A program made the position numbers and the translations under genes. From positions 1-2,909 of IMG/VR virus record IMGVR_UViG_3300014527_000093: 2,909 nucleotides of DNA; one strand, written 5' to 3'. The notes below the pieces were generated by a model. It searched no databases. It worked only from the letters and a program-made list of their open reading frames with translations, and was not told the DNA's origin. The DNA is from a virus. Lineage: Duplodnaviria > Heunggongvirae > Uroviricota > Caudoviricetes. Of the stretch, positions 1 to 2,909 are shown piece after piece; position 1 is the first letter of the stretch; every line of letters starts with the position of its first letter.

Positions 1-822
1 ATGAATCCTCTGGCGGTCCTGCGCGGTGGACTGGCAGCTTCAGGCGCGGTGCTGCGAGTGCTGGCATCCGGCCCGCTGGCGATGCTGCGCGTTGCTCTGT
101 ATGCCATATCTGGTCTGTTAGGCGCTCTGCTCAGTCCGATAGGTCTTGTGGTTACTGCACTGGCGGGCGTGGCGCTGGTTGTCTGGAAATACTGGCAACC
201 CATCACCGCATTTCTTGGTGGCGTGGTGGAAGGATTCAAAGCGGCGGCAGGTCCCATCAGTGCAGCGTTCGAACCACTTAAGCCTGTGTTTCAGTGGATT
301 GGCGACAAAGTGCAGGCGCTGTGGGGCTGGTTTACTGATCTGCTGACACCCGTTAAGTCGACCTCTGCCGAACTGCAGAGCGCAGCGGCAATGGGGCGGA
401 GATTCGGGGAGGCACTGGCGGAAGGGCTGAATATGGTCATGCATCCGCTGGACTCCCTGAAATCCGGCGTTTCCTGGTTGCTGGATAAACTCGGCATTGT
501 CAGTAAAGAGGCTGCAAAGGCGAAACTGCCGGAAAGCGTGACGCGTCAGCAACCTGCGACGGTGAATGCAGACGGTAAAGTGATGATGCCATCGGGTGGT
601 TTTCCGTCATGGGGATATGGCTTTGCGGGGATGTATGACAGCGGCGGCTATATCCCGCGCGGGCAGTTTGGCATCGTCGGTGAAAACGGGCCGGAAATTG
701 TTAACGGCCCGGCAAATGTGACCAGCCGGAGAAATACAGCTGCACTGGCTGGCGGTGTTGCCGGGACGAAGGGCGGTGCTCCCACCGTTGCATCCGTTGG
801 CGCTTCCCGCGAAAGGCGGTGA
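1..822 (+). CDS. T: Tail tape measure protein, C-terminal portion (P2 gpT-like); ORF is open to the 5' window edge, so the true start is probably upstream
   Basis: Frame 1 is open from position 1 to TGA at 820-822. Translation has long hydrophobic Ala/Gly/Leu/Val stretches (LAASGAVLRVLASGPLAMLRVALYAISGLLGALLSPIGLVVTALAGVALVV) and a Gly-rich C-terminal region with a GENGPEIV motif, both typical of tape measure C-terminal regions. It lies immediately upstream of recognisable gpU and gpD, matching P2 order T-U-D. The ATG at position 1 may be coincidental. Confidence 0.75.
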   Translation: MNPLAVLRGGLAASGAVLRVLASGPLAMLRVALYAISGLLGALLSPIGLVVTALAGVALVVWKYWQPITAFLGGVVEGFKAAAGPISAAFEPLKPVFQWIGDKVQALWGWFTDLLTPVKSTSAELQSAAAMGRRFGEALAEGLNMVMHPLDSLKSGVSWLLDKLGIVSKEAAKAKLPESVTRQQPATVNADGKVMMPSGGFPSWGYGFAGMYDSGGYIPRGQFGIVGENGPEIVNGPANVTSRRNTAALAGGVAGTKGGAPTVASVGASRERR

Positions 823-826
823 AGCG

Positions 827-1021
827 ATGGTGAGTCGTGCAGCTACTGTGCCGCCCATTTACCGGATTGAAGCACCGACGCAGATCATCATCCAGACACA
901 GCCAGGACAAAGTGCGCAGGATATTGCGCGGGAGGTGGCCCGCCAGCTTGATGAACGTGAACGCAGGCTGAAGGCAAAAGCCAGGAGTAACTACAGCGAT
1001 CAGGGGGGATACGACGCATGA
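827..1021 (+). CDS. Frame-2 ORF between tape measure stop and gpU start; most likely the frame-shifted true C-terminus of the tape measure protein, alternatively a small independent ORF (64 aa from ATG 827)
   Basis: Frame 2 is open from 722 to TGA 1019-1021; ATG at 827 follows the frame-1 TGA by 4 nt, with AAAGG at 812-816 as a possible RBS. Translation (MVSRAATVPPIYRIEAPTQIIIQTQPGQSAQDIAREVARQLDERERRLKAKARSNYSDQGGYDA) looks like real charged coding sequence. Its stop overlaps the gpU ATG as ATGA (1018-1021), a translational-coupling arrangement. Canonical P2 has no gene between T and U. Confidence 0.45.
   Translation: MVSRAATVPPIYRIEAPTQIIIQTQPGQSAQDIAREVARQLDERERRLKAKARSNYSDQGGYDA
1003..1009 (+). 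promoter_or_regulatory. Shine-Dalgarno sequence for gpU
   Basis: GGGGGGA, 8 nt upstream of ATG 1018. Confidence 0.6.
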
Positions 1022-1503
1022 TGATGGTACTGGGATTGTACGTGTTTATGCTGCGCACCGTGCCGTATCAGGAACTGCAGTATCAACGTAGCTGGCGACA
1101 TGCGGCAAACAGTCGGGTAAACCGTCGTCCGTCCACGCAGTTTCTGGGACCGGACAACGACATGCTGACGCTTTCCGGTGTTCTTATGCCGGAGATAACA
1201 GGCGGCAGGCTGTCGTTGCTGGCACTGGAGCAGATGGCAGAACAGGGGAAAGCATGGCCCCTGATTGAAGGCAGCGGCACGATTTATGGCATGTATGTGA
1301 TTGAGGGACTGAATCAGACTAAAACGGAGTTTTTCCGCGACGGTATGCCGCGCCGGATTGAGTTCACCCTGTTGCTCAAACGGGTGGATGAATCCCTGTC
1401 CGATATGTTCGGTGATCTCAGTGCGCAGCTGAATAATCTGCAGGGAACGGCAACATCTGCCTTAAGCGATATCAGTAAAACGGTGGGAGGGCTTCTGTCG
1501 TGA
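1018..1503 (+). CDS. U: Phage tail protein gpU (P2 U-like tail terminator/tail completion protein), 161 aa
   Basis: ORF 1018..1503 begins with three consecutive ATGs (MMMVLGLYVFMLRTVPYQELQYQRSW...), length ~160 aa. I recognise the translation as P2 gpU family. Strong SD GGGGGGA at 1003-1009 lies 8 nt upstream of the ATG. Start overlaps the upstream stop (ATGA) and the stop overlaps the downstream GTG start (GTGA). Confidence 0.9.
   Translation: MMMVLGLYVFMLRTVPYQELQYQRSWRHAANSRVNRRPSTQFLGPDNDMLTLSGVLMPEITGGRLSLLALEQMAEQGKAWPLIEGSGTIYGMYVIEGLNQTKTEFFRDGMPRRIEFTLLLKRVDESLSDMFGDLSAQLNNLQGTATSALSDISKTVGGLLS
1485..1490 (+). promoter_or_regulatory. Shine-Dalgarno sequence for gpD
   Basis: GGGAGG, 9 nt upstream of GTG 1500, inside the 3' end of U. 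Confidence 0.6.
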
Positions 1504-2600
1504 ATTTCAGCTCTGAACTGCTTAACAAAGGCAACAAAACTCCCGCATTCAGCATCAGTATTGAGGGCAGGGATATCACCACTGTGCTGGATAACCGCCT
1601 GATGAGTTTGACGCTGACGGACAATCGGGGCTTTGAAGCGGACCAGCTTGATCTGGAGCTGGACGACGCCGACGGAAAAATCGTGCTGCCGCGCCGTGGT
1701 GCGGTCATTACGCTGGCGCTGGGCTGGAAGGGGCAGCCGCTTTTCCCGAAAGGGGCATTCACGGTGGACGAGATTGAACACACTGGCGCACCGGACCGCC
1801 TGACTATCCGGGCGCGAAGTGCTGATTTTCGGGAAACGCTGAATACCCGCCGTGAAAAATCGTGGCATAACACCACCATCGGGGAAGTGGTGAAGGAAAT
1901 AGCCGCGCGGCACAAGCTGAAGATGGCACTGGGTAAAGACCTGTCGGATAAGCCCGTGGAGCATATAGACCAGACTAATGAGAGTGACGGCAGTTTTTTG
2001 ATGCGGCTGGCGCGCCAGTACGGTGCCATTGCATCGGTGAAAAATGGCAATCTGTTATTCATCCGGCAGGGACAGGGCAAAAGCGCCAGCGGTAAACCAC
2101 TGCCGGTGATTACTATCACACGTAAGGACGGCGACAGTCACCGCTTTACCCTGGCAGATCGCGGAGCTTACACGGGGGTAATTGCCAGCTGGTTGCATAC
2201 CCGCGAACCCGCGAAGAAAGAAAGCACTACGGTGAAGCGTAAGCGCAGGACTAAGAAGCAGAAGAAAGAGCCGGAAGAGAAGCAGGGCGATTACCTGGTG
2301 GGTACGGATGAAAACGTGCTGGTACTTAATCGCACTTATGCCAACCGGAGCAACGCCGAACGGGCAGCGAAAATGCAGTGGGAACGCCTGCAACGCGGCG
2401 TTGCATCATTCTCGCTACAACTGGCGGAAGGGCGGGCAGATCTCTACACAGAAATGCCTGTGAAGGTCAGTGGCTTTAAACAGCCGATAGATGATGCGGA
2501 ATGGACCATTACGACTCTGACGCATACCGTCAGCCCCGATAACGGTTTTACAACCAGTCTGGAGCTTGAAGTGAGGATTGATGATTTCGAAATGGAATGA
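1500..2600 (+). CDS. D: Phage tail protein / late control gene D protein (P2 gpD-like, tail hub-associated), 366 aa
   Basis: ORF 1500..2600 with GTG start overlapping the gpU stop (GTGA at 1500-1503). SD GGGAGG at 1485-1490 with a 9 nt spacer. Length and position directly after U and before ogr match P2 gene D. Consistent coding character throughout; the only overlapping ORFs are antisense. Confidence 0.88.
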   Translation: MNFSSELLNKGNKTPAFSISIEGRDITTVLDNRLMSLTLTDNRGFEADQLDLELDDADGKIVLPRRGAVITLALGWKGQPLFPKGAFTVDEIEHTGAPDRLTIRARSADFRETLNTRREKSWHNTTIGEVVKEIAARHKLKMALGKDLSDKPVEHIDQTNESDGSFLMRLARQYGAIASVKNGNLLFIRQGQGKSASGKPLPVITITRKDGDSHRFTLADRGAYTGVIASWLHTREPAKKESTTVKRKRRTKKQKKEPEEKQGDYLVGTDENVLVLNRTYANRSNAERAAKMQWERLQRGVASFSLQLAEGRADLYTEMPVKVSGFKQPIDDAEWTITTLTHTVSPDNGFTTSLELEVRIDDFEME

Positions 2601-2626
2601 TTCTTCGCAATGGAGAACTTTTAAGT

Positions 2627-2656
2627 TTGCAAAATGGAATAATGCGGTATCATTAT
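2627..2656 (+). promoter_or_regulatory. Putative sigma70-type promoter for ogr (-35 TTGCAA at 2627-2632, candidate -10 hexamers TATCAT/CATTAT around 2648-2656)
   Basis: The D-ogr intergenic region (2601-2690) is AT-richer than the flanking genes. TTGCAA is a 5/6 match to the -35 consensus, followed 15-18 nt later by A/T-rich hexamers resembling TATAAT. The exact -10 is ambiguous and the spacing is suboptimal for each candidate. ogr is an independently transcribed gene in P2. Confidence 0.3.
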
Positions 2657-2690: not shown

Positions 2691-2909
2691 ATGATGATTT
2701 GCCCACTGTGTGGAAGTGCCGCCCATACTCGCAGCAGTTTTCAGGTATCTTCATTGACCAAAGAGCGTTACAACCAGTGCCAGAACATTAACTGCAGCCA
2801 TACTTTTGTTACCCATGAAACTTTTGTTCGTTCGATTGCAACGCCAAAAGAGTCAAATCCGGTTCAGCCGCATCCAATGAAATCAGGACAGGTGGCGCTC
2901 TCTCTTTGA
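2691..2909 (+). CDS. ogr: Ogr/Delta-family zinc-finger late-gene transcriptional activator, 72 aa
   Basis: Translation from ATG 2691: MMICPLCGSAAHTRSSFQVSSLTKERYNQCQNINCSHTFVTHETFVRSIATPKESNPVQPHPMKSGQVALSL. It has the Cys4 spacing C-x2-C-x22-C-x4-C (Cys at residues 4, 7, 30, 35) and the 72-aa length characteristic of P2 Ogr, and sits directly downstream of D as in P2. SD GGGGAG at 2675-2680 lies 10 nt upstream of the ATG. The ORF track's GTG start at 2658 is unlikely because it has no RBS and adds a non-conserved N-terminal extension. Confidence 0.9.
   Translation: MMICPLCGSAAHTRSSFQVSSLTKERYNQCQNINCSHTFVTHETFVRSIATPKESNPVQPHPMKSGQVALSL

What the first reader, a model, noticed from the sequence alone, without database searches (positions are those of the whole stretch)
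722..1021. Reading-frame break at the 3' end of the tape measure gene
The tape measure ORF (frame 1) stops at 820-822, but frame 2 is open from 722 through 1021 and ends in an ATGA overlap with the gpU start, the signature of the true upstream gene end in a coupled operon. P2-type operons have T directly followed by U with no gene between. This suggests a 1-nt insertion or 2-nt deletion somewhere in ~722-822 relative to an intact tape measure gene, either a sequencing/assembly error or a genuine frameshift that truncates the protein by ~65 aa. Less likely, the 64-aa ORF from ATG 827 is an independent small gene, or the site is recoded. A truncated tape measure protein would matter for tail length and function and could mark a defective prophage.
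Basis: partly seen in the sequence, partly recalled or inferred. Interest (0 to 1): 0.45.

Follow-up and report, generated by a model that had tools for sequence, protein, structure and literature searches.

The report
Frameshifted prophage tape measure gene
The tail tape measure gene of a P2-family prophage is broken near its 3' end by a one-off 17-base deletion with seven base changes around it, so the short open frame before gene U is the cut-off end of that gene and not a new gene; this is ordinary gene damage or a sequence error.

Summary
Frame 1 (tape measure gene T) stops at 820-822. Frame 2 is open from 722 to 1021 and ends in an ATGA overlap with gpU. The cause is a net 17-nt deletion at about 773-776 (equivalent to -2 nt) inside a 30-nt patch (752-781) that carries seven substitutions. 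Outside positions 18, 39 and 40, the rest of the window is identical to its closest relatives, whose T is an unbroken 1025-aa protein. More than 1,000 E. coli prophages, 56 phage records and divergent TMPs (down to 42-48% identity) read straight through the breakpoint. The 64-aa ORF equals T residues 962-1025. It is called as a gene only where T is broken or deleted. No slippery site exists and no homolog shares the two-frame arrangement, so programmed recoding and a separate small gene are both rejected. The frame-1 product (953 aa equivalent) loses 87 canonical residues, including the conserved terminal helix that docks on the spike in P2. The allele is a singleton in every collection searched. 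Without reads I cannot tell a genuine complex mutation from an assembly artefact. This is an ordinary finding of low interest.

The parts
1..822 (+). Frame-1 remnant of tape measure gene T. Codon 1 is Met681 of the canonical 1025-aa protein. The sequence is canonical to residue 930, altered at 931-938, then has 15 out-of-frame residues and a premature TGA at 820-822.
752..781 (+). Lesion patch with seven substitutions private to this sequence (C752G, T755G, A765G, T767C, T770A, A777T, T781C relative to L004/5/6). They change AVVAGMMG to GGVAGTKG.
   Evidence: clustering P<=1e-9
773..776 (+). Site of the net 17-nt deletion. Canonical ...GGGCG[TTGCTGCCGCGCCTGCA]GAGCT... is shortened here; placement is ambiguous by a few bases. 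This is the point where the frame shifts.
   Evidence: (601 nt vs 618 nt in every hit)
776..1021 (+). Frame-2 continuation, the orphaned 3' end of T. Codons 779-1018 are canonical residues 946-1025. The stop at 1019-1021 overlaps the gpU start (ATGA).
827..1021 (+). The 64-aa ORF, equal to T residues 962-1025. It is not an independent gene. Gene finders call it only where T is broken or deleted.
813..821 (+). Shine-Dalgarno-like AAGGCGGTG (-8.1 kcal/mol), 5 nt before ATG 827. The premature TGA overlaps its last two bases, a geometry that would allow termination-reinitiation (inferred).
914..997 (+). Codes for the conserved terminal helix SAQDIAREVARQLDERERRLKAKARSNY of T, which the frame-1 product loses.
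   Evidence: P2 structure preprint
1018..1503 (+). gpU (tube initiator), intact. PF06995, E=2e-43. DNA identical to L004/5/6.
1500..2600 (+). gpD (baseplate hub), intact. The exact protein is on record in 157 blocks of public contigs.
2691..2909 (+). ogr/Delta-like late-gene activator (72 aa), intact.

Best explanation
The window is the T(3' third)-U-D-ogr end of a Peduoviridae (P2-family, Elveevirus/Fels-2-type) prophage of the kind that sits next to ybjL in E. coli. In this copy a single complex lesion has shifted the reading frame of tape measure gene T at codon 939 of 1025. The lesion is a net 17-nt deletion at about 773-776 flanked by seven base substitutions within 30 nt. Translation in the original frame adds 15 wrong residues and stops at 820-822. 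The true last 80 codons of T now lie in frame 2 and still end in the ATGA overlap with gpU. I lean towards a genuine, recent, private mutation, that is, decay of a prophage tail gene. The truncated T lacks its conserved C-terminal helix. By analogy with P2, that helix forms the three-helix bundle seated on the spike inside the gpD/gpU hub. Tail assembly should therefore fail and the prophage should not make infectious particles (inferred). U, D and ogr are intact. U has its own strong Shine-Dalgarno site, and ATG 827 could restart translation 5 nt after the premature stop, so downstream expression need not be lost (inferred).
For: Every one of 32 phage records and about 1,060 full-coverage E. 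coli places covers the 601-nt query with 618 nt. Annotated T genes in these records are single 3078-nt CDSs overlapping U. The closest relatives L004/5/6 are identical to the window from 41 to 751 and from 782 to 2909. They differ only by the 17-nt gap and 7 substitutions at 752-781, plus 3 substitutions at 18, 39 and 40. One protein aligns across both window frames, including Fels-2, a Klebsiella Gegavirus phage and a Yersinia phage at 48% identity. In an exhaustive HMMER search of 1.84 billion representatives the frame-2 segment sits at the extreme C-terminus of TMPs of 767-1133 aa. The 64-aa ORF is called only in prophages with a deleted or split T. Seven of ten private substitutions fall within 30 nt, P<=1e-9, which points to one event. 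The terminal helix is predicted at pLDDT 76-86 and is nearly invariant. In P2 the TMP C-terminal region is modelled as three helices on spike gpV (preprint 10.64898/2026.09.14.750843).
Against: A 17-nt deletion with seven substitutions (four of them transversions) in 30 nt is not a typical spontaneous mutation. The allele was found in no other sequence. All ten private differences lie in T and none in the 1,888 nt of U-D-ogr. These three points fit a local sequence or assembly error equally well. The functional consequence is inferred, not shown. The C-terminus of this T aligns only weakly with that of P2 gpT (about 20% identity). The first 680 codons of T lie outside the window.
Confidence: 0.55

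Rival explanations
1. Sequencing or assembly artefact. The organism's T gene is intact, and the 17-nt gap plus the clustered miscalls arose in base-calling, consensus building, polishing or assembly of this GC-rich stretch.
For: The allele is a singleton in all collections. The lesion is complex and rich in transversions. A second small cluster of private changes lies at 18, 39 and 40, also in T, while 1,888 nt of U-D-ogr are flawless. The window starts exactly on an internal in-frame Met codon of T, which hints at a contig edge or a further break just upstream. Other public assemblies of this prophage show error-type splitting of T and of neighbouring genes (L011).
Against: There is no homopolymer in 722-822, so it is not the usual long-read indel error. 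No strong hairpin is present (z = 0.4 and 1.9, not more stable than shuffles). None of the private bases matches any paralogous or divergent allele that mis-mapped reads could have contributed. The 711 nt upstream and 2,128 nt downstream are error-free.
Confidence: 0.38
2. The lesion is genuine but T still works as a split protein. A 953-aa T' and the 64-aa C-terminal peptide, made by termination-reinitiation at ATG 827, would associate and still support tail assembly.
For: An SD-like AAGGCGGTG (-8.1 kcal/mol) lies 5 nt before ATG 827, with the premature TGA overlapping it, and this ranks in the top 8% of start-codon contexts in the window. The 64-aa piece contains the whole conserved terminal helix and keeps the ATGA coupling to U.
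Against: No homolog is organised this way. Residues 939-961 would be lost or replaced and 931-937 are altered. Met962 is not conserved outside the E. coli/Klebsiella alleles. A TMP is thought to act as one continuous chain from the spike to the tail terminator (general knowledge). The published test for homology between the small R2-pyocin 'ripcord' protein and the P2 TMP C-terminus was negative.
Confidence: 0.04
3. The 64-aa (or 88-aa) ORF is an independent small gene between T and U, and T naturally ends at 822.
For: It has an ATG, an SD-like site and an ATGA overlap with U. Gene finders call it in some assemblies.
Against: In every intact relative the same codons are the last 64 codons of T. 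All 77 representative hits carry the segment at a C-terminus, and the long ones are TMPs. The assemblies where it is called alone all have a deleted or split T. It has no Pfam family. The start Met is not conserved.
Confidence: 0.02
4. Programmed +1 ribosomal frameshifting, or another recoding event, joins frame 1 to frame 2.
For: The two frames overlap over 722-822. The same operon uses a programmed -1 frameshift upstream in E/E' (P2 annotation).
Against: The two-frame arrangement is absent from all homologs, so no selected signal can exist. There is no X XXY YYZ motif and no homopolymer of 4 or more in 700-830. The codon before the stop is CGG, which cannot re-pair in the +1 frame as the prfB CUU does (established knowledge). 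No Rfam element is present.
Confidence: 0.01

Closest known systems
Intact tape measure genes of Elveevirus-type Peduoviridae prophages (e.g. E. coli E2348/69 WP_001282790.1; Klebsiella phage 4LV2017 YP_009789858.1; CP099898.1 locus L005)
   Same: 95-99% nucleotide identity over the whole window. The gene order T-U-D-ogr is the same, as is the ATGA T/U overlap. U, D and ogr are identical to L004/5/6.
   Different: Those genes are uninterrupted 3078-nt ORFs (1025 aa). The window lacks 17 nt and has 7 substitutions at 752-781, which splits the 3' end into two frames.
Phage P2 gpT (NP_046782.1, 815 aa) and the P2 tail structure
   Same: Homologous N-terminal and central regions (44-47% identity over two blocks). 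T is directly followed by U, D and ogr. Both proteins end in a charged helix, which in P2 forms a three-helix bundle on spike gpV.
   Different: The last 150 or so residues are barely alignable (20% identity). P2 T and U do not overlap (14-nt gap). P2 gpT is 210 aa shorter.
Degraded P2-family prophage remnants at the E. coli ybjL locus
   Same: T is inactivated while U-D-ogr persist, and the orphaned 64-aa ORF is called by gene finders.
   Different: Those remnants carry kilobase-scale deletions or rearrangements, or error-type splits. The window has a 17-nt deletion with clustered substitutions, and as far as the window shows, the flanking genes are untouched.
Programmed -1 frameshift in the tail chaperone genes E/E' of P2-family phages
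   Same: Two overlapping frames in the same tail operon, immediately upstream of T.
   Different: E/E' is conserved across the family, has a slippery site and yields two needed products. The T break is private to this sequence and has no slippery site.

Membership tests
P2-family (Peduoviridae) tail tape measure gene T | Sequence homology to annotated T/TMP genes along its length | tested here: met
   99.1% identity to L004/5/6 and 95-98% to annotated TMP CDSs when frames 1 and 2 are joined. Homology to P2 gpT is 44-47%.
P2-family (Peduoviridae) tail tape measure gene T | Position in the operon: after E/E' and directly before U, D and ogr | tested here: met
   U (PF06995), D and ogr follow directly. 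The upstream E/E' genes lie outside the window but are present in all close relatives.
P2-family (Peduoviridae) tail tape measure gene T | PF10145 PhageMin_Tail domain | tested here: inconclusive
   The domain lies at residues 246-457 of the canonical protein (E=2e-18), upstream of the window. The window fragment itself has no Pfam hit.
P2-family (Peduoviridae) tail tape measure gene T | One uninterrupted ORF running to the start of U (an intact, functional gene) | tested here: not met
   A premature stop at 820-822 follows the 17-nt deletion. It is a disrupted allele of the gene, not an intact member.
Programmed ribosomal frameshift site | Two-frame arrangement conserved in homologs | tested here: not met
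   All homologs are in one frame: 32 phage records and about 1,060 E. coli places, 56 phage records by tblastn in one piece, and alignment A2.
Programmed ribosomal frameshift site | Slippery sequence or a prfB-like shifty stop, with a stimulator | tested here: not met
   No X XXY YYZ motif and no homopolymer of 4 or more in 700-830. The last sense codon, CGG, cannot re-pair at +1 (established knowledge). There is no Rfam hit.
Independent small gene between T and U | Conserved stand-alone ORF in relatives whose T ends upstream of it | tested here: not met
   No such relative was found. In all long hits the segment is the C-terminus of the TMP. Stand-alone calls occur only with a broken T.
Independent small gene between T and U | Conserved start codon | tested here: not met
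   Met962 is absent from the Fels-2, Gegavirus and Yersinia homologs.

The most novel reading that the evidence does not exclude
The lesion is genuine and the tape measure protein still works in two pieces. A 953-aa body and a 64-aa spike-docking helix peptide, the latter made by termination-reinitiation at the SD-ATG 827 site, would associate. That would be a natural demonstration that the TMP's C-terminal anchor can be supplied in trans.
Probability: 0.04. Interest if true: 0.45.

Novelty: already known. Interest (0 to 1): 0.1.

Why it matters
It matters mainly for annotation. The 64-aa ORF should not be annotated as a gene, and T should be flagged as a frameshifted pseudogene, or the sequence re-checked. 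If the lesion is genuine, this prophage copy probably cannot build tails and is a defective, decaying element, even though its U, D and ogr genes are intact. The complex form of the lesion (a deletion plus seven substitutions in 30 nt) is a minor curiosity. If confirmed at read level, it would be an example of a multi-nucleotide mutational event.

Tried and rejected
1. Templated (quasi-palindrome or ectopic-repeat) mutagenesis. The mutated patch gains an 11/12 direct match to 810-821 and a 10/11 inverted match to 705-715. Random substitutions at the same or at random positions do as well in 13-26% of trials, so I dropped this.

2. Hairpin-driven deletion or gel compression. Neither the canonical nor the mutant DNA folds better than shuffles.

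3. Donor paralogue, either gene conversion or mis-polishing from another P2-like T gene. No allele in 5,426 E. coli genomes or 50,697 phage records matches the patch better than canonical alleles do (about 84%). The divergent alleles do not share the private bases.

4. Finding the source contig or other carriers. Exact junction searches of GTDB representatives, IMG/VR and JGI metagenomes found nothing. Exact look-ups of the 273-aa and 88-aa products found nothing. The plasmid collection has only canonical alleles.

5. The word-indexed protein search returned only short fragments, so it could not serve as a length census. I replaced it with the exhaustive HMMER search.

6. A separate small-protein precedent (R2 pyocin ripcord). 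The P2 structure preprint tested homology to the TMP C-terminus and found none.

7. A deletion hotspot at about 760-780. Several remnant junctions fall there. However, L008 and L014 share both breakpoints and are probably one lineage, and my queries selected for fragments ending in this region, so I make no hotspot claim.

Full report
**What is in the window.** The 2909 bases carry four features:
- the last third of a tape measure gene T (frame 1, 1-822);
- gpU (1018-1503; PF06995, E=2e-43);
- gpD (1500-2600);
- an ogr/Delta-like gene (2691-2909).

The closest public sequences are P2-family (Peduoviridae) prophages inserted next to ybjL in E. coli, and Klebsiella/Escherichia phages of the Elveevirus type. 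In those records T is one 3078-nt CDS (1025 aa) that overlaps U by ATGA. Window position 1 is the in-frame codon for Met681 of that protein.

**Checking the observation.** Frame 1 stops at TGA 820-822. Frame 2 has a stop at 719-721 and is then open to TGA 1019-1021. ATG 827 opens a 64-aa ORF, and the U start ATG 1018 overlaps the frame-2 stop.

**What caused the break.** In all 32 phage records, and in about 1,060 E. coli places that cover the query, the 601-nt query 500-1100 aligns to 618 nt. Alignments place a 17-nt gap at about 773-776. The canonical sequence there is ...GGGCG[TTGCTGCCGCGCCTGCA]GAGCT..., and the placement is ambiguous by a few bases.
- Three contigs that encode exactly the same gpD (L004, L005, L006) have an intact T.
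- Against these contigs the window is identical from 41 to 751 and from 782 to 2909.
- The only differences are the 17-nt gap, seven substitutions at 752, 755, 765, 767, 770, 777 and 781, and three more at 18, 39 and 40.
- Seven of ten differences within 30 nt has a chance probability of at most 1e-9, and it never occurred in 200,000 simulations. The deletion and the substitutions therefore look like one local event.

**Protein-level reading.**
- Frame 1 is canonical to T residue 930.
- Residues 931-938 read GGVAGTKG instead of AVVAGMMG.
- Fifteen out-of-frame residues follow, and then the stop.
- Frame 2 from 779 encodes canonical residues 946-1025 exactly.
- The frame-1 product is therefore 72 aa shorter than canonical T and lacks 87 canonical residues.
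- The 64-aa ORF is T residues 962-1025.

**Is the 64-aa ORF a separate gene, or is the site recoded?** Neither reading holds.
- A 130-aa query spanning the break matches 56 phage records as a single unbroken tblastn piece, down to 60% identity.
- Annotated T genes of Fels-2, a Klebsiella Gegavirus phage and a Yersinia phage run through the breakpoint and abut U. One protein aligns across both window frames.
- An exhaustive HMMER search of 1.84 billion cluster representatives found 77 hits with the segment at the C-terminal end. These include TMPs of 767-1133 aa at 42-68% identity.
- The short hits are deletion fusions or broken fragments.
- The exact 64-aa product is called as a gene only in assemblies where T is deleted, rearranged or split.
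- It has no Pfam family, and its Met is not conserved outside the E. coli/Klebsiella alleles.
- The overlap zone has no X XXY YYZ motif and no homopolymer of 4 or more, and there is no Rfam element. The two-frame arrangement is absent from all relatives, so a selected recoding signal cannot exist.

**Likely consequence (inferred).** The lost segment ends in a nearly invariant motif, QPGQSAQDIAREVARQLDERERRxRAKARSNYSDQGGYD. AlphaFold2 models it as one helix at residues 47-74 of the 81-aa fragment, with pLDDT 76-86 and the rest disordered. [quoted passage not shown] These lie under a gpD hub trimer and a gpU tube-initiator hexamer. This T and P2 gpT share clear homology up to about residue 867 but only a weak terminal motif after that, so the analogy is reasonable but not proven. 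A T that lacks this anchor in cis should not support tail assembly.

Downstream genes need not be silenced. U has a strong SD of its own (-10.2 kcal/mol). An SD-like AAGGCGGTG (-8.1 kcal/mol) lies 5 nt before ATG 827, with the premature TGA overlapping it, and this geometry would allow reinitiation.

**Genuine mutation or artefact?** These tools cannot settle this.
- For an artefact:
  - The allele is a singleton in every collection searched: GTDB representatives, IMG/VR, JGI metagenomes, 5,426 complete E. coli genomes, the phage and plasmid collections, the 5.8-billion-cluster protein set and the exact-protein look-ups.
  - The lesion is complex and rich in transversions.
  - All ten private changes lie in T, and none lies in the 1,888 nt of U-D-ogr.
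  - The window starts on an internal Met codon, which hints at a contig edge or another break upstream.
- Against an artefact:
  - No homopolymer is involved.
  - There is no unusually stable hairpin.
  - No paralogue or divergent allele could have donated the variant bases.
  - The flanks are perfect.
- I lean slightly towards a genuine, recent mutation (about 0.55, against 0.38 for an artefact).

**Mechanism of the lesion.** I tested whether the substitutions were templated by nearby direct or inverted repeats. The mutant patch gains an 11/12 direct match and a 10/11 inverted match. Random substitutions do as well in 13-26% of trials, so nothing supports templating. A simple 3-nt (GCT) microhomology could account for the deletion alone, read directly from the sequence, but not for the substitutions.

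**Comparison with what is known, and verdict.** This is a disrupted allele of a well-known gene in a well-known operon. It resembles the many decaying P2-family remnants at the same chromosomal site, though its lesion is much smaller. It is neither a recoding site like E/E' nor a new small gene. A published test for homology between the small R2-pyocin ripcord protein and the TMP C-terminus was negative, so there is no natural precedent for a split TMP. Novelty: already known. Interest: low (0.1). The only reading with some novelty is a functional split T, which I put at about 4%.

Noticed in passing
window 18, 39-40: Three more substitutions are private to this sequence: A18C (synonymous) and CG39-40TT (Ala to Ser). 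They are absent from all 8 alleles compared. This is a second small private cluster, again inside T.
   Followed up: partly
window 1 and 2909: The window starts exactly on the in-frame Met681 codon of T and ends exactly on the ogr stop codon. It is probably bounded by gene calls. If so, T may be interrupted again, or the contig may end, just upstream of the window.
   Followed up: no
L007-L016 (E. coli ybjL locus); junctions at window equivalents 598, 646, 668, about 772-774 and 821: Many public assemblies carry remnants of this prophage in which large deletions or rearrangements end inside the 3' part of T while U-D-ogr are kept. L008 and L014 share both breakpoints (L002 409 and 3273-3275). 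The right-hand breakpoint lies within 1-4 nt of the window's 17-nt deletion. This may be coincidence or ascertainment.
   Followed up: partly
L011 (AP027897.1) 7115-10195 and 17969-20195: In this complete-genome assembly T is split into three ORFs, and the neighbouring chromosomal genes (the SBP and ABC transporter genes) are also split. That pattern suggests assembly-wide indel errors. It shows that artefactual T breaks exist in public data.
   Followed up: no
P0003, P0008 (E. coli proteins): Other independent frameshift alleles of the same T region exist. P0003 ends ...AALAAVVAE, consistent with a 1-nt deletion about 10 nt upstream of the window's lesion. P0008 shifts into frame 2 near the window equivalent of 712.
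   Followed up: no
window 2626-2653 and 2649-2651: A sigma-70-like TTTGCA-16-TATCAT lies upstream of ogr, at the position where P2 has its annotated ogr promoter. The window has 3 extra bases here relative to E2348/69.
   Followed up: no
window 2215-2290 (gpD residues about 239-263): gpD contains a strikingly basic, low-complexity stretch (KKESTTVKRKRRTKKQKKEPEEKQ). I did not compare it with P2 gpD or with the hub loop described in the P2 structure preprint.
   Followed up: no
window 813-829: The SD-like AAGGCGGTG plus ATG lies inside T and is conserved in the E. coli/Klebsiella alleles but not in the Fels-2-type alleles. I did not examine whether intact T genes also make an internal C-terminal product.
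   Followed up: no
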